Below, in pieces: positions 5,908 through 34,184 of a stretch of DNA of 40,644 nucleotides. Origin of the DNA: a phage; assembly GCA_017062915.1 (NCBI GenBank), contig GCA_017062915.1_4331.1, one strand, 5' to 3'. Positions within the stretch are counted from its first letter, which is position 1; the number at the start of each line of letters is the position of its first letter. The translations under genes were made by a program, and so were the position numbers. The notes under the pieces are model-generated. The model saw nothing but the letters and a program-made list of their open reading frames with translations, did no database searches and had not been told where the DNA came from.

Positions 5908-5912
5908 AACTA

Positions 5913-5936
5913 AGGCCCCAAACGGGGCCTTTTCTC
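5913..5936. terminator. bidirectional rho-independent terminator
   Basis: Hairpin AGGCCCC-AAAC-GGGGCCT followed by TTTTCTCT; T-rich on the opposite strand as well; lies between convergent gene blocks. Confidence 0.6.
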
Positions 5937-6255: not shown

Positions 6256-7676
6256 TTCTTACCTCGTCTCTTCATGTAATTAAGCAATTCTTCCTGGACC
6301 GATTTCTTCTCGTCAGTACGCGCGGCAACAACCTCGTCCAGCGTGTCTTTAGCAACGATGTGGTAAAGGAATACCGGGCGCTCGTGTCCCGCCTGTTTCT
6401 GGCGTACCGGGCCTATACGCTCAACGACCTGCAAATAGTGCTCAAGGTTCCAGCCTTGTGAAATAAACGCCAGATGATGCCCACCGTCCTGTAAATTGAG
6501 GCCGTGGCCCGCTGACGCCGGATGTACGCATAAGATTTCGATTTCACCGCGGTTCCACGCTTCCATCTGCTTATTGCCCTTAGCACCTTTTGCAAACGCC
6601 TGGGCTTGAGGGAATCGCTTAAGGATACGTTCCAGTTCGTGCTTGAACTGATAGGCGACCAGTAGCGGTGCGCCCTGTAACTCCTCGACAATGGACTCAA
6701 GCGCATCCAGTTTCGTATCGTGCACTTTCTCCCAGTCTTTGGTTGCTTCTCCGTCCGGCCCCGACACATACACGGCACCAGATGCAATCTGCAAACACTT
6801 CGACGTCTTCGCCGCTGCGTTAGCTGCTTCAACTTCTCCGCTCTCCAGTTCTGCAAATAGCTTCTCCTCCATATCTATGTACGCCTGACGCGCTTTCTTC
6901 GGCAGGTCGATTTCAACCGGTACGATAATCGGCGCTTCGCAACCGAACCACTCGGCAGCGTCAATCGTTAGACTAATGTCCTTCATCTTCTGGTGAATCT
7001 CAGTATCCGCGCCCGGGCGGGCGTGATACTCTCGTGCCATAGCGGACTTACCCTTCTGTACCGAATTAAACCAGCGGTCGGTGAACGCGGTGTATGAAGA
7101 ACCCAGGCGCTCGCCCGCGTCTATAAACCAGTTCTGCCCCCACAGGTCTTTGAGACCGTTAGGAGATGGTGTACCTGTCAGGTTGATGAAACGCTTAACC
7201 TTACCGAACGCCACCTTGCTGAGCGCCTTCGCTCGCTTGCTGCCGCCAGAACGGCTACGGAAAGATTTCAGTTTCGTGCTCTCGTCGGCAACTATAACGG
7301 TGAAAGGCCAGTCGTCTTTGCCGTAGTAGTCGATTAGCCACTCGATGACCTCGTAGTTGGTGCATACCACGTTAGCGTCGGACTCAAGCGCCGCGATGCG
7401 GCGCTTCTCTGAACCGGTTGCGTCTACTACACGCAGACACGGAAACCGCCATTTCTCTTGTTCTGCAGGCCACGTACCGGATGCAACACGCAATGGGGCC
7501 AGGATTAACACGCGGTCGTCGTCCGTAAGTTGCCCGTTGCGGAACAGGCGGTTTAACGTCCACAGGACGCTGCCCGTCTTCCCTGCGCCCATCGAAGCCC
7601 ATATGTTACAGCGCGAGTGCTGTAACATGAACGCTGTCATGAGTTTTTGATATTCGCGCCTTTGAAATTTACTCAT
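6252..7676 (-). CDS. SNF2/DEAD-like superfamily 2 helicase
   Basis: Walker A MGAGKTGS, motif II VIVADEST, C-terminal helicase-type region (HGLNLQDGGHHLAF). Confidence 0.7.
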   Translation of the reverse strand: MSKFQRREYQKLMTAFMLQHSRCNIWASMGAGKTGSVLWTLNRLFRNGQLTDDDRVLILAPLRVASGTWPAEQEKWRFPCLRVVDATGSEKRRIAALESDANVVCTNYEVIEWLIDYYGKDDWPFTVIVADESTKLKSFRSRSGGSKRAKALSKVAFGKVKRFINLTGTPSPNGLKDLWGQNWFIDAGERLGSSYTAFTDRWFNSVQKGKSAMAREYHARPGADTEIHQKMKDISLTIDAAEWFGCEAPIIVPVEIDLPKKARQAYIDMEEKLFAELESGEVEAANAAAKTSKCLQIASGAVYVSGPDGEATKDWEKVHDTKLDALESIVEELQGAPLLVAYQFKHELERILKRFPQAQAFAKGAKGNKQMEAWNRGEIEILCVHPASAGHGLNLQDGGHHLAFISQGWNLEHYLQVVERIGPVRQKQAGHERPVFLYHIVAKDTLDEVVAARTDEKKSVQEELLNYMKRRGKK

Positions 7677-16886: not shown

Positions 16887-16911
16887 TAAGATACAAAAGA
16901 TGCTACTGGTA

Positions 16912-17165
16912 TTGACTTTTACTTAAAAATATGCTAAGCTTCACTGAGCTTGTGAGATATCGCAAGCGACCGCGGAGCGGCAGGGAACGCAACGCGTGCC
17001 ATTAGGCACTTGAGTGTAGTTCCGCTGGCGCTTTCGGAAGGGCCAAAGTCTATTGTTAATCCCACCTAAATACCCAAGTCACTGATAATTAAAAGTTTCT
17101 ATAGTTTCCGTGAGCAAGGTGGAAAGTACTTCACTCCGCTGGGGCGGGCTAACGCCCGCCCACTG
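16912..17165 (+). ncRNA. candidate promoter-proximal structured RNA element, copy 1
   Basis: TTGACT-N17-TAAGCT promoter (16912-16940), about 200 nt without a credible ORF, GC hairpin GGGCGGGC-TAAC-GCCCGCCC at 17142-17161; paralogous to 28022-28259. Confidence 0.4.
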
Positions 17166-17219
17166 CGTTGCGTACTCTTTTAAGAAACGAAAGAATCACA
17201 ACGGCAACGTAACTATCTC

Positions 17220-17248
17220 TTGCACGCCCCAACATAATAGGATACTAT
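17220..17248 (+). promoter_or_regulatory. early-class promoter TTGCAC-N17-TACTAT with AATAG-N4-CTATT palindrome
   Basis: Near-identical module at 18728, 27927(-) and 36211(-); leader TTATCGAAACGAGACAGAGGAG supplies the RBS. Confidence 0.55.
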
Positions 17249-17282
17249 TCACTTATCGAAACGAGACAGAGGAGTGAAGGTT

Positions 17283-17474
17283 ATGTTTAAGAAGGGTCAG
17301 TTGGTTAAATGCGCCGACGGTAAACACGGTGTGATTGAATTAAAATCCGCTTTATTTCCGGGAGAGTACATAGTTACTGTGCAAAAGGTGAGAGGAGTAA
17401 ATTCGGTGGCATACGTAGCGGAAGAGAATTTAAAACTAATCGGCAACAATTTTAAATTCAAAGGGGCGAAGTGA
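17283..17474 (+). CDS. hypothetical early protein
   Basis: RBS AGAGGAG 8 nt upstream of the ATG; first gene after the early promoter. Confidence 0.5.
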   Translation: MFKKGQLVKCADGKHGVIELKSALFPGEYIVTVQKVRGVNSVAYVAEENLKLIGNNFKFKGAK

Positions 17475-18549: not shown

Positions 18550-18720
18550 ATGAAACTGAATGACATCGTAACCTGGACCGGCAGAAACGGAGAAAAGCGA
18601 TTCGGGCTTATTGTTGAGTCAAACGGCAACAAGTACCGTGTTATGCGATGGCGTCAGTGGGCCAGACGTCCAAGGTACTACTGGATTCGTAGTGAACGAT
18701 TATCTTTAAAACACCAATAA
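18550..18720 (+). CDS. hypothetical protein
   Basis: ATG with RBS AGGAG at 8 nt spacing (track start 18526 less likely). Confidence 0.45.
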   Translation: MKLNDIVTWTGRNGEKRFGLIVESNGNKYRVMRWRQWARRPRYYWIRSERLSLKHQ

Positions 18721-18727
18721 AATTTAC

Positions 18728-18756
18728 TTGCACACTGAGATATAATAGGCTACTAT
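18728..18756 (+). promoter_or_regulatory. early-class promoter TTGCAC-N17-TACTAT with AATAG-N4-CTATT palindrome
   Basis: Same module as 17220-17248; leader CACAAACGAGAGGAGAGACAAGG. Confidence 0.55.
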
Positions 18757-18796
18757 TCATTTACACAAACGAGAGGAGAGACAAGGTGAAAGAGTT

Positions 18797-19000
18797 ATGA
18801 CCAGCATCTTATTTATCTGGGTGCTGTCCGCAGGCCAGATGCAACTGGCGGCATCAGAAACGTTTTATTCGATGGAGGCGTGCCAGTCAGCGGCACGCGC
18901 CGCAGAGAACGCGCACTTTCTGTTTCAGGGTGACAAGCCCAACGATTCAGAGGTACGTGCTATCTGCTCACCTAAGCGACTTGGTAAACAGGAGAAGTGA
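18797..19000 (+). CDS. hypothetical protein with hydrophobic N-terminus
   Basis: 67 aa; N-terminal MTSILFIWVLSAGQMQLAA looks like a signal/anchor segment. Confidence 0.45.
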   Translation: MTSILFIWVLSAGQMQLAASETFYSMEACQSAARAAENAHFLFQGDKPNDSEVRAICSPKRLGKQEK

Positions 19001-19707: not shown

Positions 19708-19981
19708 ATTATTCTGGTTTGGCGGTATGCTCGCAATCGGAGGTACATCGCTGTTTAACGTATACCACCCCAGTGTGGACGATGGCCTGTTTGGCCGTGT
19801 GCTGTATATCCTCACCGCTATTGTCTGCGCTGCCGGTTGTATTCACCTGTTACATGGCAGCATGTCGCCGACGCTGCCGGAAACACTAATCACCCTGGTA
19901 GCGCTGCGACAGATTCGTCAGTCGTGGCTGCATTACCAGTCGAAAGGAGGACATAAGCGTGTCTCGAAACATTTCAGATAA
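19700..19981 (+). CDS. second holin/antiholin-like membrane protein
   Basis: 93 aa, two hydrophobic helices and a basic C-terminus; ATG overlaps the upstream gene end, RBS GGAGGTGG. Confidence 0.45.
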   Translation: MNELFWFGGMLAIGGTSLFNVYHPSVDDGLFGRVLYILTAIVCAAGCIHLLHGSMSPTLPETLITLVALRQIRQSWLHYQSKGGHKRVSKHFR

Positions 19982-20465
19982 TGGATTGCAGTTCAAGAAA
20001 GCGTGGGAGAAGTTTCGCGGAACTGCCTACAAAGCAACAAAGAACGAAAAATACTGGACTATAGGCTGGGGCCATACCGGGCCTGAAGTGTACGAAGGGC
20101 AGAAGATTACCGAAGGTCAGGGACTTCTGCTACTGAACCGCGATATGCAGTGGGCAGTGAAAGCAGTTGATGAAGTCGCGCACCCCTCACTGACCCAGGC
20201 CCAGTTTGATGCTGTTGTCGACCTGGTGTTCAACGCCGGAACTGGCGTGATTGCGGCTACTACTGGCACGTGTAAGGCACTACGGCAGGGAGACATCCCT
20301 ACTCTACGACACAAGATGAGTCAGTTTATCAACCAGCGTAACCCGAAAACCGGTAAACTTGAGCCTGTGCTTGGCCTACGCCGTCGCGTAGCTGGTCGTC
20401 TGGCACTGTTCGACGGTAAACCGTGGCAGGAGGCTGAGGCTATTGGACGCGCGGTGAAAGGTTGA
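19959..20465 (+). CDS. endolysin, phage lysozyme (T4-lysozyme-like GH24 muramidase)
   Basis: GTG start with strong RBS AAAGGAGG; conserved GH24 core KYWTIGWGHTG with upstream Glu; 168 aa. Confidence 0.8.
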   Translation: MSRNISDNGLQFKKAWEKFRGTAYKATKNEKYWTIGWGHTGPEVYEGQKITEGQGLLLLNRDMQWAVKAVDEVAHPSLTQAQFDAVVDLVFNAGTGVIAATTGTCKALRQGDIPTLRHKMSQFINQRNPKTGKLEPVLGLRRRVAGRLALFDGKPWQEAEAIGRAVKG

Positions 20466-20581
20466 TAGACTAACGACAACAGAAGATTAAACAACATTAA
20501 GGGCATTCCGGGTATCATCACCCTCGCGGACCTGTAACAAGGTCGAGCCAAAGTGCGGTAACGCGCGCCGGAGAATCTCTG

Positions 20582-20610
20582 TTGACACCTAAGACTAATC
20601 CTACGATACT
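20582..20610 (+). promoter_or_regulatory. sigma70-type promoter TTGACA-N17-GATACT driving a very short terminated transcript
   Basis: Perfect -35, 17-nt spacer; predicted start about 40 nt before the terminator at 20652. Confidence 0.4.
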
Positions 20611-20651
20611 TAAATCACCTCCTGTTCCATCCCTCTGCTCTCCAGTTTTAT

Positions 20652-20681
20652 CCCGGCACTGACCCAGCCGGGATTTTTTTT
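20652..20681 (+). terminator. strong rho-independent terminator
   Basis: CCCGGC-ACTGACCCA-GCCGGG followed by eight T. Confidence 0.7.
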
Positions 20682-20703
20682 ATCTATTTTCTGCAATGAC
20701 TAG

Positions 20704-20732
20704 TTGACTATTACTCTGACACCAATTATATT
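20704..20732 (+). promoter_or_regulatory. sigma70-type promoter TTGACT-N17-TATATT for the 20766-22626 operon
   Basis: Good -35 and -10 with 17-nt spacer, about 35 nt upstream of the first RBS. Confidence 0.45.
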
Positions 20733-20765
20733 TACTCCATCGACAACGAGAACGGAGTAGAGAAG

Positions 20766-20915
20766 ATGAAAATAACAGATATCGAAGCATTCAAAGACGC
20801 ACAACTTATGGCACGTATCGCCGTTAGTAATCTCAGCACTGCTGTACCTGCGGACGCGTTCTGGTTCGCTGCGATGCAGACACTGAAAGCAGCTTATGCA
20901 GGAGAGAAGAAATGA
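20766..20915 (+). CDS. small hypothetical protein (49 aa)
   Basis: RBS GGAG; stop overlaps the next start (ATGA). Confidence 0.4.
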   Translation: MKITDIEAFKDAQLMARIAVSNLSTAVPADAFWFAAMQTLKAAYAGEKK

Positions 20916-21070
20916 CCGTTTATATTGTTACTGGTTGGCGATGTCTGCGTGATATAGAAATTATTAACGTGTTTGCAAATGAAGAGAAGGCCAAAAAAGC
21001 TGCGGAGTTAGTGCGAACCGCTGGCTACTACGATGTTGTTGAAATTAATAATTACGAGGTCGAGCAATGA
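20912..21070 (+). CDS. small hypothetical protein (52 aa)
   Basis: ATGA overlaps at both ends. Confidence 0.4.
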   Translation: MTVYIVTGWRCLRDIEIINVFANEEKAKKAAELVRTAGYYDVVEINNYEVEQ

Positions 21071-22124: not shown

Positions 22125-22357
22125 TTACCAGCATTCCGAACCTGATTAAAGAATACGGCACGATGGCTGAGACATGCCGACAAACCGGCATCAACGAAAT
22201 GACGATTCGCAAGTACAGCAAAGACGTAGACTGCGAGCGCCATGTAATTTATAACAACCGACTGATGACGCACGTTAAGACAAGCCCGGTGCTATTCACA
22301 CGCCGCGGCATCACGAAGACTGAGCAACGTATCGCACGAGAGGAGAGTGGGGAATGA
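22121..22357 (+). CDS. hypothetical protein
   Basis: ATG start with ATGA coupling preferred over the track GTG at 22097. Confidence 0.45.
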   Translation: MITSIPNLIKEYGTMAETCRQTGINEMTIRKYSKDVDCERHVIYNNRLMTHVKTSPVLFTRRGITKTEQRIAREESGE

Positions 22358-22626
22358 TTGAATATGATAACTACCACATAAACCGGTGTGAGGCACTTGA
22401 ATTTTTGTCCAGAAACTTCCACGATTTCCCGGAATGCATGCCTAATGTACGCGAAGTTGCAGAGGGTATTTCCGAGAACATATTCAAAGGTTGGCGATTC
22501 GTCGTTATTGATTCCGGTGAGTTGGTTTTCGCGGATTGCCTTTCACCATGTATCCGTAAAATAGACCTTGAGGAATTTAATGCAACTTTTAGTCTTTCCG
22601 AATGCCTGGGCAATCGCTGTATCTAA
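22354..22626 (+). CDS. hypothetical Cys-rich protein
   Basis: 90 aa, coupled; last gene before a terminator. Confidence 0.5.
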   Translation: MIEYDNYHINRCEALEFLSRNFHDFPECMPNVREVAEGISENIFKGWRFVVIDSGELVFADCLSPCIRKIDLEEFNATFSLSECLGNRCI

Positions 22627-27652: not shown

Positions 27653-27656
27653 TAAA

Positions 27657-27682
27657 AGGCCCCTTACGGGGCCTTAGTTTTA
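27657..27682. terminator. bidirectional rho-independent terminator
   Basis: AGGCCCC-TTAC-GGGGCCT flanked by T-rich sequence on both strands; between convergent genes. Confidence 0.6.
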
Positions 27683-34154: not shown

Positions 34155-34159
34155 AACTA

Positions 34160-34184
34160 AGGCCCCTTTCGGGGCCTTTTTCTT
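34160..34184. terminator. bidirectional rho-independent terminator
   Basis: AGGCCCC-TTTC-GGGGCCT with T-runs on both strands; separates the major tail gene from the convergent accessory cassette. Confidence 0.65.

What the first reader, a model, noticed from the sequence alone, without database searches (positions are those of the whole stretch)
20582..20681. Promoter-to-terminator mini-unit downstream of the endolysin whose 5' end matches the 16S rRNA anti-Shine-Dalgarno tail
A near-consensus promoter (TTGACA-N17-GATACT) is followed about 40 nt later by a strong terminator (CCCGGC hairpin plus eight T), predicting a roughly 65-nt pyrimidine-rich transcript with no ORF. Its predicted 5' end contains ATCACCTCCT (about 20614-20623), identical to 10 nt of the 3' end of enterobacterial 16S rRNA. 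A small RNA carrying an anti-SD mimic could titrate SD sequences or act as an sRNA; it could equally be an attenuator remnant or a chance match (roughly a 1-in-10 chance of one such 10-mer somewhere in the window on either strand).
Basis: partly seen in the sequence, partly recalled or inferred. Interest (0 to 1): 0.5.

Follow-up and report, generated by a model that had tools for sequence, protein, structure and literature searches.

The report
Conserved small-RNA gene after phage endolysin
Just after the lysis enzyme gene of this E. coli phage lies a promoter-to-terminator unit for an RNA of about 65 bases that is kept almost unchanged in hundreds of related phages, so it is probably an undescribed phage regulatory RNA, but its exact match to the ribosomal RNA tail is not the conserved part.

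Summary
TTGACA-N17-GATACT lies at 20582-20610. A C/U-rich tract with no ORF follows, then an 8-bp GC hairpin (20650-20674) and T8 (20674-20681). ATCACCTCCT (20614-20623) equals 10 nt of the E. coli 16S 3' tail and is unique in the window (0.04 expected).

The window is a Kagunavirus-like genome. The unit is present in all 31 sampled relatives at about 95% identity, inside a mosaic region where the flanking endolysin is only 68-91% identical. A homologous unit follows the endolysin in Jerseyvirus. A diverged one occupies the same position in FSL SP-031-like Salmonella phages.

Both promoter hexamers, a purine 7 nt after the -10, a 5'-terminal CUCCU, CAUCCCUCU and the terminator are conserved, while the promoter spacer diverges. 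In 7 relatives a separate terminator ends just before the -35, so there the unit stands alone.

The full anti-SD 10-mer occurs only in Kagunavirus. About 3 of its nucleotides lie upstream of the predicted start.

Best reading: an unannotated phage small RNA with an Hfq-type 3' end and a pyrimidine-rich 5' seed. No target was found and there is no expression evidence. It would be a new member of a known kind.

The parts
19959..20465 (+). Endolysin gene (context). In most relatives its TGA stop lies inside the -35 hexamer of the unit.
   Evidence: Pfam Phage_lysozyme PF00959, E 1.4e-24. Stop/-35 overlap in 15 of 31 Kagunavirus loci.
20466..20581 (+). 116-bp variable non-coding insert between the endolysin stop and the unit. 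It is not part of the conserved unit.
   Evidence: Present in only some relatives. The conserved block begins at 20581/20582 in the hits listed.
20582..20587 (+). P1 -35 hexamer TTGACA
   Evidence: TTGACA in 46 of 47 distinct unit sequences, TTGACG in one.
20605..20610 (+). P1 -10 hexamer GATACT, 17-nt spacer
   Evidence: GATACT in 46 of 47, CATACT in one. The spacer is 10/17 identical between the Kagunavirus and Jerseyvirus consensus and almost wholly different in L025.
20617..20617 (+). Predicted transcription start (A, 7 nt after the -10). Inferred, not measured.
   Evidence: A purine occupies this position in 47 of 47 distinct units.
20614..20623 (+). ATCACCTCCT, identical to 10 nt of the 16S rRNA 3' tail. 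Only ACCTCCT (20617-20623) is predicted to be transcribed.
   Evidence: The 10-mer is confined to Kagunavirus-type units, 30 of 47.
20617..20649 (+). Unstructured C/U-rich 5' region (82% pyrimidine): 5'-terminal CCUCCUG, then CAUCCCUCU, CUCUCCAG and a UUUU run next to the hairpin. Proposed seed.
   Evidence: CUCCU lies within the first 16 nt in 46 of 47 units and CAUCCCUCU is present in 42 of 47.
20650..20674 (+). Terminator hairpin: 8-bp stem, 9-nt loop containing conserved CUGACC
   Evidence: -14.3 kcal/mol. It is the only consensus structure. One C-G to U-A compensatory change separates the two genera.
20674..20681 (+). T8 tract (U-tail of the terminator)
   Evidence: There are 7-14 T in all homologues.
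20704..20732 (+). P2 (TTGACT-N17-TATATT), the next promoter. It starts 23 nt after the T tract and drives orf49 and the small-gene cluster towards the terminase genes (context).
   Evidence: The hexamers are conserved and the spacer is variable in relatives. The same hexamers occur in Jerseyvirus.

Best explanation
The unit is an independent, conserved gene for a small non-coding RNA of about 60-65 nt, found in Guernseyvirinae phages.

Proposed mechanism (inferred):
1. Host sigma-70 RNA polymerase starts at P1, whose -35 hexamer usually overlaps the endolysin stop codon.
2. The RNA begins at about A20617 and ends at the intrinsic terminator.
3. In genomes without an extra upstream terminator, the same terminator also ends the lysis-gene transcript. 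This is the layout of an sRNA embedded in a 3' UTR with its own promoter.
4. The RNA has a single-stranded C/U-rich 5' part that starts with R-C(C)UCCU, then a U-rich stretch, a GC hairpin and a U-tail. This is the layout of an enterobacterial Hfq-dependent sRNA.
5. It most likely acts in trans. The pyrimidine-rich 5' seed would pair with purine-rich, Shine-Dalgarno-like mRNA segments and change their translation or stability.

Shown here: the sequence elements, their coordinates, and their selective conservation. Inferred: transcription, Hfq dependence, base-pairing and the targets.
For: - The block is conserved as a unit. It is found in 122 Kagunavirus-type records at 91% identity or more, and the match begins at the -35 in the hits listed.
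- It is 88-98% identical in all but two of 31 relatives (L025 and L023 align over only part of it), where the endolysin is 68-91%, the holin 76-93% and orf49 81-93% identical.
- It is present in 31 of 31 loci, whereas many neighbouring genes are present in under 90% of them.
- The conservation follows a promoter pattern. Among 47 distinct sequences from two genera, TTGACA and GATACT are each kept in 46, with spacing fixed at 17 and a purine at the 7th base after the -10 in all 47. Meanwhile the spacer and the bases around the start diverge.
- Seven of 31 relatives have a 10-bp-stem terminator ending a few nt before the -35. In those genomes P1 is the only evident source of the RNA, and the downstream terminator is not needed to end the lysis operon.
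- The 5' 33 nt are unstructured in every homologue. The only consensus structure is the hairpin, with one compensatory pair change.
- A 100-nt insertion in L023 / phage EC3-1 folds into its own 5' hairpin and leaves the CU tract and terminator intact.
- A homologous unit is found in 328 phage records, nearly all Salmonella Jerseyvirus-type.
- A covariance model finds exactly one copy per genome, and also matches the FSL SP-031-like RNAs in the same position at E 1e-5 to 5e-3.
- Host precedent: E. coli CyaR carries CACCUCCUUA.
Against: - There is no expression evidence of any kind.
- No target emerged. Duplex scans of translation start regions in a Kagunavirus and a Jerseyvirus genome gave only generic purine-rich hits.
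- The best real start-region hit, the gene starting at 22354, is present in only about 17% of relatives.
- A 14-bp match to the helicase gene is not matched by the Jerseyvirus RNA.
- The endolysin SD does not covary with the RNA 5' end.
- No match of about 20 nt or longer exists in E. coli genomes.
- High conservation could partly reflect recombination at a module junction.
- The segment between CUCCUG and CAUCCC varies, and the family-wide shared sequence is short.
Confidence: 0.5

Rival explanations
1. The hairpin is simply the terminator of the lysis operon. The CU tract is a 3'-UTR element affecting mRNA stability or termination efficiency. P1 is a conserved but functionally unimportant promoter-like sequence, so there is no trans-acting RNA.
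For: In 15 of 31 Kagunavirus loci and in the Jerseyvirus loci inspected, the endolysin stop abuts or overlaps the -35, so the lysis transcript must run through the unit to this terminator. In a read-through fold, the CU tract can pair with the purine-rich end of the endolysin gene.
Against: - That fold is not significant (z = -1.35).
- Seven relatives end the lysis transcript at a separate upstream terminator yet keep the whole unit.
- Exact conservation of both hexamers, their spacing and a purine start site over a diverging spacer is hard to explain without promoter function.
Confidence: 0.2
2. A promoter-proximal terminator that controls downstream genes, as with lambda PR'-tR'. P1 transcripts stop at the hairpin unless a phage factor antiterminates. 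Read-through then expresses orf49, the small genes and the terminase and head genes.
For: The geometry fits: a strong constitutive promoter, a short terminated RNA, then late-type genes.
Against: - P2, a 10/12 promoter conserved in both genera, follows 23 nt after the T tract and makes antitermination unnecessary.
- No alternative antiterminator hairpin is predicted.
- No antiterminator is annotated in relatives, and none appears among the ten proteins scanned here.
Confidence: 0.1
3. A DNA-level element: a recombination junction between gene modules, a packaging or replication signal, or a protein-binding site. Its sequence would be conserved for reasons unrelated to RNA.
For: The unit lies at a hot spot of insertions and gene replacement. 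At least four different inserts end at the same GGTTGA junction. The region is strongly mosaic.
Against: - The conserved positions coincide with promoter hexamers, a hairpin showing a compensatory change, and a T tract.
- Cumulative GC skew shows nothing at 20.6 kb.
- The junction repeat covers only the first few bases of the unit.
Confidence: 0.07
4. A true mimic of the 16S rRNA 3' tail. An abundant RNA copying the anti-SD would either compete with 30S subunits for SD sequences generally, or act as a decoy for factors or defence nucleases that recognise the 16S tail.
For: There is 10-nt identity to the 16S tail with 0.04 expected by chance. It sits at the extreme 5' end of the RNA and is single-stranded.
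Against: - The AUC is probably not transcribed.
- The 10-mer is absent from the Jerseyvirus and FSL SP-031-like homologues and from two Kagunavirus variants.
- The 8-mer core is at chance level.
Confidence: 0.05
5. The functional strand is the minus strand. The reverse complement reads as an SD, a spacer, an AUG and a 6-7 codon mini-ORF: GGAGAG-N7-ATG GAA CAG GAG GTG ATT TAA in this window, and AAGGAG-N8-ATG...TAG in Jerseyvirus.
For: The SD-like sequence, the ATG (CAT on the + strand) and an in-frame stop are present in both genera. This was read directly from the sequences.
Against: - No minus-strand promoter lies to the right.
- All neighbouring genes are on the + strand.
- The peptide is not conserved (MEQEVI versus MNKQEQV).
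- L025 loses the stop.
- The hairpin and T tract are oriented for the + strand.
Confidence: 0.03

Closest known systems
CyaR (RyeE), Hfq-dependent sRNA of E. coli and Salmonella
   Same: Both carry a single-stranded stretch identical to the 16S anti-SD tail. CyaR has CACCUCCUUA and the unit has AUCACCUCCU, so they share CACCUCCU. Both end in a Rho-independent terminator with a U-tail. From established knowledge, CyaR represses mRNAs by pairing at ribosome-binding sites.
   Different: There is no sequence or structure homology: no Rfam hit to CyaR at E up to 10. In CyaR the motif lies in an internal hairpin region of an 87-nt RNA. Here it is at the extreme 5' end of a roughly 65-nt RNA. This unit is phage-encoded, and the motif is not conserved across its family.
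Betaproteobacteria toxic small RNA (Rfam RF02278) and anti-hemB (RF02837)
   Same: These are short RNAs (about 57-92 nt) with a terminator. They were the best Rfam matches, both below threshold. From memory, they carry C/U-rich anti-SD-like motifs. They are toxic when cloned in E. coli (PMC4603805).
   Different: Scores are 23.8 and 19.4 bits against gathering thresholds of 50 and 49.5. The matches rest mainly on the terminator. The taxa differ and the genomic context is bacterial rather than phage.
3'-UTR-embedded sRNAs with their own promoter (MicL; also DapZ, from memory)
   Same: The promoter lies within or at the end of the upstream coding sequence, and the sRNA shares the mRNA's terminator. 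MicL is transcribed from within the cutC coding sequence (PMC4102768, abstract seen).
   Different: Those are host sRNAs with known regulators and targets. Here both expression and targets are only predicted.
Lambda PR'-tR' 6S RNA and StxS of Stx phages (from memory); also lambda OOP and P22 Sar
   Same: A phage promoter is followed closely by a terminator, giving a short abundant RNA next to the lysis and late genes.
   Different: The lambda unit is the substrate of Q antitermination and has no second promoter after tR'. Here P2 follows the terminator and no Q-like protein was seen. OOP and Sar are cis-antisense RNAs, whereas no opposite-strand gene exists here.

Membership tests
Hfq-type trans-acting sRNA (enterobacterial architecture) | Own promoter and a defined 5' end | tested here: inconclusive
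   A 10/12 sigma-70 promoter with invariant hexamers and spacing, and a purine at +1 in 47 of 47 distinct sequences. No transcript data.
Hfq-type trans-acting sRNA (enterobacterial architecture) | Rho-independent terminator hairpin with a U-tail of 6 or more, preceded by a U-rich stretch (the Hfq-binding module; established knowledge) | tested here: met
   8-bp GC stem, 7 U after the stem, and UUUUAU immediately 5' of the stem. All are conserved in Kagunavirus and Jerseyvirus.
Hfq-type trans-acting sRNA (enterobacterial architecture) | Conserved single-stranded seed | tested here: met
   The 5' 33 nt are unpaired in single-sequence and consensus folds. CUCCU and CAUCCCUCU are conserved in 46 and 42 of 47 sequences.
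Hfq-type trans-acting sRNA (enterobacterial architecture) | Binding to Hfq and base-pairing with defined target mRNAs | not testable with these tools
   Duplex scans gave no specific or conserved target. The host genome could not be scanned.
CyaR (Rfam RF00112) | Match to the family covariance model | tested here: not met
   No CyaR match at E up to 10 in 20380-20800. Only the 8-nt CACCUCCU is shared.
Betaproteobacteria toxic sRNA (Rfam RF02278) | Score at or above the gathering threshold (50 bits) | tested here: not met
   23.8 bits, E 0.012. Nothing in the window reaches any gathering threshold.
16S rRNA 3'-tail (anti-SD) mimic | The anti-SD sequence is present in the RNA and conserved among homologues | tested here: not met
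   The exact 10-mer occurs in Kagunavirus-type units only (30 of 47). Jerseyvirus units start GCUCCUG, and the FSL SP-031-like RNAs lack the motif. The AUC lies upstream of the predicted start.
Transcription attenuator / leader | Alternative antiterminator structure or leader peptide upstream of the terminator | tested here: not met
   Only the terminator hairpin is predicted in single and consensus folds. There is no start codon in the RNA.
Lambda-type PR'-tR' antitermination unit | Downstream late genes depend on read-through, with no promoter between the terminator and those genes | tested here: not met
   P2 (TTGACT-N17-TATATT) starts 23 nt after the T tract and is conserved in both genera.
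Lambda-type PR'-tR' antitermination unit | A Q-like antiterminator gene in the genome | not tested
   None is annotated in fBC-Eco01 or BPS11Q3, and none was found among 10 neighbouring proteins. The whole proteome was not scanned.

The most novel reading that the evidence does not exclude
The RNA is a deliberate copy of the ribosome's anti-Shine-Dalgarno tail. Made in large amounts from a near-consensus promoter on a replicating phage genome, it would either compete with 30S subunits for strong SD sequences and so re-programme translation during infection, or act as a decoy for host factors or anti-phage nucleases that recognise the 16S 3' end. The Jerseyvirus and FSL SP-031-like versions would be diverged relatives tuned to other partners.
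Probability: 0.06. Interest if true: 0.85.

Novelty: new member of a known kind. Interest (0 to 1): 0.45.

Why it matters
Regulatory RNAs of strictly virulent phages are barely charted. The phage sRNAs reviewed in PMC12197685 and listed come mostly from temperate phages and prophages.

This candidate is single-copy and present in every relative sampled. It is the best-conserved non-coding block next to the lysis genes in a subfamily that is widely isolated for E. coli and Salmonella phage therapy and biocontrol. It occurs in about 120 Kagunavirus-type and about 330 mostly Jerseyvirus records, with a diverged form in about 30 FSL SP-031-like phages. None of the records inspected annotates it as an RNA gene.

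If it is expressed, it offers a compact natural system for studying how a lytic phage uses a pyrimidine-rich seed against purine-rich ribosome-binding regions. It could also influence lysis timing or host shut-off. The finding is directly testable with isolates in public collections, such as the BASEL phages Bas71, Bas72 and Bas75 and the K1-specific phages.

Tried and rejected
1. Rfam at gathering thresholds over the whole window found nothing. At E up to 10 over the region it gave only sub-threshold hits driven by the terminator.
2. The literature searches made on Kagunavirus, Guernseyvirinae or Jerseyvirus (small RNA, RNA-seq/promoter, transcriptome terms) and on phage sRNAs with an anti-SD found nothing relevant.
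3. Exact-pattern scans found the unit only in Guernseyvirinae-sized viral contigs, once per contig. There was one chance-level hit in GTDB genomes and none in E. coli genomes. So there is no host copy and no long host complement.
4. Target searches:
   - A genome-wide duplex scan gave a 14-bp match in the helicase gene at 6836-6849(-). The Jerseyvirus RNA does not share it, although the helicase site is identical there. Rejected as a probable chance match.
   - Start-region scans gave the gene starting at 22354, which is absent from most relatives.
   - The endolysin SD (AGGAGG here, CGGAGG in most relatives) shows no covariation with the RNA 5' end.
   - AGAGGGATG-type complements do not fall at start regions.
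5. Pairing of the CU tract with the end of the endolysin gene in read-through RNA is not significant.
6. A replication-origin idea was dropped because there is no GC-skew feature at 20.6 kb.
7. The minus-strand mini-ORF was considered and rejected: no promoter, no peptide conservation.
8. Similarity of the Jerseyvirus 5' end to the RybB 5' end (GC..CUGCUU) was noticed from memory. It was not tested and is treated as chance.

Full report
**What is in the sequence**

The window is a Kagunavirus-like (Guernseyvirinae) E. coli siphophage genome. Tail genes lie on the + strand to about 5.9 kb. A replication module lies on the - strand from 6.2 to 16.8 kb. From about 17.2 kb everything is on the + strand: small genes, two holins, the endolysin at 19959-20465 (Pfam Phage_lysozyme), a cluster of small genes, and then the terminase, head and tail genes.

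- -35 TTGACA at 20582-20587, a 17-nt spacer, and -10 GATACT at 20605-20610.
- ATCACCTCCT at 20614-20623. It is unique in the window, with 0.04 expected by chance.
- A tract with no ORF that is 82% pyrimidine.
- An 8-bp hairpin AUCCCGGC/GCCGGGAU with a 9-nt loop at 20650-20674, and eight T at 20674-20681 (-14.3 kcal/mol).

The consensus terminator scan missed the hairpin only because its loop exceeds the 8-nt limit. The E. coli 16S rRNA ends in GGAUCACCUCCUUA, so the 10-nt identity is real.

A second promoter of equal quality, P2 (TTGACT-N17-TATATT, 20704-20732), follows 23 nt after the T tract. It leads into orf49 at 20766.

**Comparative evidence**

The 101-nt block is found in 122 phage records at 91% identity or more. 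In the hits listed, the match begins at query position 22 or 23, which is the -35 hexamer.

In 31 Kagunavirus genomes sampled through their endolysin rather than through the unit:
- The unit is 88-98% identical in all but two; L025 and L023 align over only part of it.
- The adjoining endolysin is 68-91%, the holin 76-93% and orf49 81-93% identical.
- A position-by-position profile shows the unit in 31 of 31 genomes at about 95% identity. The surrounding region is mosaic, with many genes present in only some genomes.

A homologous unit follows the endolysin in 328 phage records, nearly all Salmonella Jerseyvirus-type.

Across 47 distinct unit sequences from the two genera:
- The -35 is TTGACA in 46.
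- The -10 is GATACT in 46.
- The spacing is always 17.
- The 7th base after the -10 is always a purine.

The spacer is only 10/17 identical between the consensus of the two genera and is almost completely different in L025. This is the pattern expected of a working promoter.

The predicted RNAs begin ACCUCCUG (Kagunavirus), GCUCCUG (Jerseyvirus) or ACUCCUUG (two Kagunavirus variants). CUCCU lies within the first 16 nt in 46 of 47 sequences. CAUCCCUCU is present in 42 of 47. The UUUAUCCCGG junction, the CUGACC loop and the U-tail are nearly invariant.

The only consensus structure is the terminator hairpin. One C-G to U-A compensatory change, plus stem extension, separates the genera.

A covariance model of the RNA finds exactly one copy in the window and one in a complete Jerseyvirus genome. 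It also matches, at 20-31 bits, the short C-rich RNAs that occupy the same position in FSL SP-031-like Salmonella phages and related contigs. Those appear to be diverged homologues without a CUCCU motif.

**Is it an independent unit or just the lysis-operon terminator?**

In 15 of 31 Kagunavirus genomes, the endolysin TGA lies inside the -35 (GG-TTGA-CA). In the Jerseyvirus loci inspected, its TAG stop lies immediately before the -35. In these the lysis transcript must end at this hairpin.

The other genomes carry 85-336 bp inserted exactly at that junction:
- extra small ORFs that again end in GGTTGA;
- the 116-bp non-coding insert seen in this window;
- in 7 genomes, a separate 10-bp-stem terminator that ends a few nt before the -35.

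In those seven genomes the unit is bracketed by terminators yet fully conserved. This argues that P1 and the RNA are maintained for their own sake.

A rare 100-nt insertion in L023 / phage EC3-1 lies between the -10 and the CU tract. It folds into a self-contained 5' hairpin and leaves the CU tract single-stranded. That fits an RNA built from separate modules.

**Mechanism**

The layout matches an enterobacterial Hfq-dependent sRNA whose seed lies at the extreme 5' end: an unstructured 5' part, a U-rich stretch, a GC hairpin and a U-tail. This comparison rests on established knowledge of the Hfq-binding module.

The gene arrangement matches 3'-UTR-embedded sRNAs that have their own promoter, such as MicL (PMC4102768).

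A pyrimidine-rich seed containing CCUCCU would pair with purine-rich ribosome-binding regions. E. coli CyaR, which carries CACCUCCUUA, is a host precedent.

I therefore favour a trans-acting base-pairing sRNA. This is inference.

No target could be identified:
- Start-region and whole-genome duplex scans gave only generic purine-rich hits.
- A 14-bp match in the helicase gene is not shared by the Jerseyvirus RNA.
- The endolysin SD does not covary with the RNA.
- E. coli genomes contain no long complement.

**The anti-SD claim**

The 10-nt identity is statistically unusual but is not what is conserved:
- With the start at A20617, the first three nucleotides (AUC) are not transcribed.
- The bases between the -10 and CUCCU differ between lineages.
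- The 10-mer is absent from the Jerseyvirus and FSL SP-031-like homologues and from two Kagunavirus variants.
- The 8-mer CACCTCCT is at chance frequency.

Only the 5-nt anti-SD core is general. A dedicated 16S-tail mimic therefore remains a low-probability reading.

**Rivals**

- A pure terminator or 3'-UTR element is weakened by the terminator-bracketed genomes and by the promoter conservation pattern.
- A lambda PR'-tR'-like antitermination unit, or an attenuator, is weakened by the conserved P2 immediately downstream and by the absence of any alternative structure.
- A DNA-level junction or origin signal is not supported by GC skew. It also does not explain the hexamer, hairpin and T-tract pattern.
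- The minus strand reads as an SD, an AUG and a 6-7 codon mini-ORF in both genera. However, there is no minus-strand promoter and the peptide is not conserved.

**Comparison with known families, and novelty**

- No Rfam family reaches its threshold. The best sub-threshold hits are the Betaproteobacteria toxic sRNA at 23.8 bits against a threshold of 50, and anti-hemB. There is no CyaR hit.
- Of the relatives' records inspected, fBC-Eco01 annotates predicted promoters and a terminator here and Schulenburg a terminator. Snoke lists a terminator under the match. None shows an RNA gene.
- Literature searches found no description.

The unit is best filed as a new, still unverified member of a known kind: a phage-encoded small regulatory RNA. 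It is notable for being universal in a subfamily of virulent phages.

**Verdict**

- Interest is moderate at 0.45.
- Confidence in the sRNA-gene reading is about 0.5. Northern blotting or dRNA-seq would be the decisive test.

Noticed in passing
window 20466-20581: A 116-bp non-coding insert lies between the endolysin stop and the P1 -35, bounded by GTTGA at both ends. It is present in only some Kagunavirus relatives. Its core (CGCGGACCTGTAACAAGGTC...GTGCGGTAACGCG...CCGGAG) recurs inside the post-endolysin RNA of a more distant phage contig (L039). It folds better than shuffles on the + strand (z = -2.55) and has no Rfam match. It may be a small mobile or structured RNA module.
   Followed up: partly
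L023 3684-3783 (also phage EC3-1, PQ571288.1): A 100-nt insertion with 13-bp terminal inverted repeats (TTAGGCGAGTAGT...ACTACTCGCCTAA) lies between the P1 -10 and the CU tract. It is predicted to form a separate 5' hairpin domain on the small RNA. Among phage records it was seen in only one isolate.
   Followed up: partly
L007, L016, L020, L023, L028, L030, L041 (for example L020 2897-2930): An extra intrinsic terminator (ACCCGGA-N7-TCCGGGT followed by TTTATTTT) ends a few nt before the P1 -35. It arrives together with 97-165 bp of inserted non-coding sequence after the endolysin.
   Followed up: yes
L017, L035, L096, L097, L099, L121, L123, L135 (post-endolysin region): FSL SP-031-like Salmonella phages and related contigs carry, in the same position, a -10-like element right after the endolysin stop. 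It is followed by a 50-200 nt non-coding RNA ending in ...AAAUUCCAYSCAGCCAGCYUUUG plus a hairpin and U-tail. The 5' part varies greatly in length. The covariance model links it weakly to the Kagunavirus and Jerseyvirus RNA (20-31 bits).
   Followed up: partly
window 17212-17286 and 18720-18799: Two paralogous promoter-plus-leader copies (CTTGCAC...ATAATAGGMTACTATTCAYTTAY..AAACGAGA...) head successive + strand gene clusters. P2 at 20704 shares the AACGAGA..GGAG leader motif more loosely.
   Followed up: partly
window 16900-17260: A non-coding stretch of about 330 bp lies in the divergent region between the - strand replication genes and the + strand genes. It follows a TTGACT...TAAGCT promoter-like site. 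The cumulative GC-skew minimum is here. It was not examined for structure or function.
   Followed up: no
window 5912-5931, 27656-27675, 34159-34178: The palindromic hairpin AAGGCCCC-N4-GGGGCCTT is repeated at three gene-module boundaries. At two of them it scores as a terminator on both strands.
   Followed up: no
window 6836-6849 (- strand) versus 20632-20645: There is 14-bp complementarity (one G-U pair) between the small RNA (CUCUGCUCUCCAGU) and the helicase coding sequence (ACUGGAGAGCGGAG). The helicase site is identical in Jerseyvirus, but the Jerseyvirus RNA lacks the complement, so this is probably chance.
   Followed up: yes
window 20911-21070 and 22354-22626: orf52 (DUF7336) and the 90-aa ORF at 22354 are absent from nearly all 31 sampled relatives. 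This shows how mosaic the small-gene cluster between the unit and the terminase genes is.
   Followed up: partly
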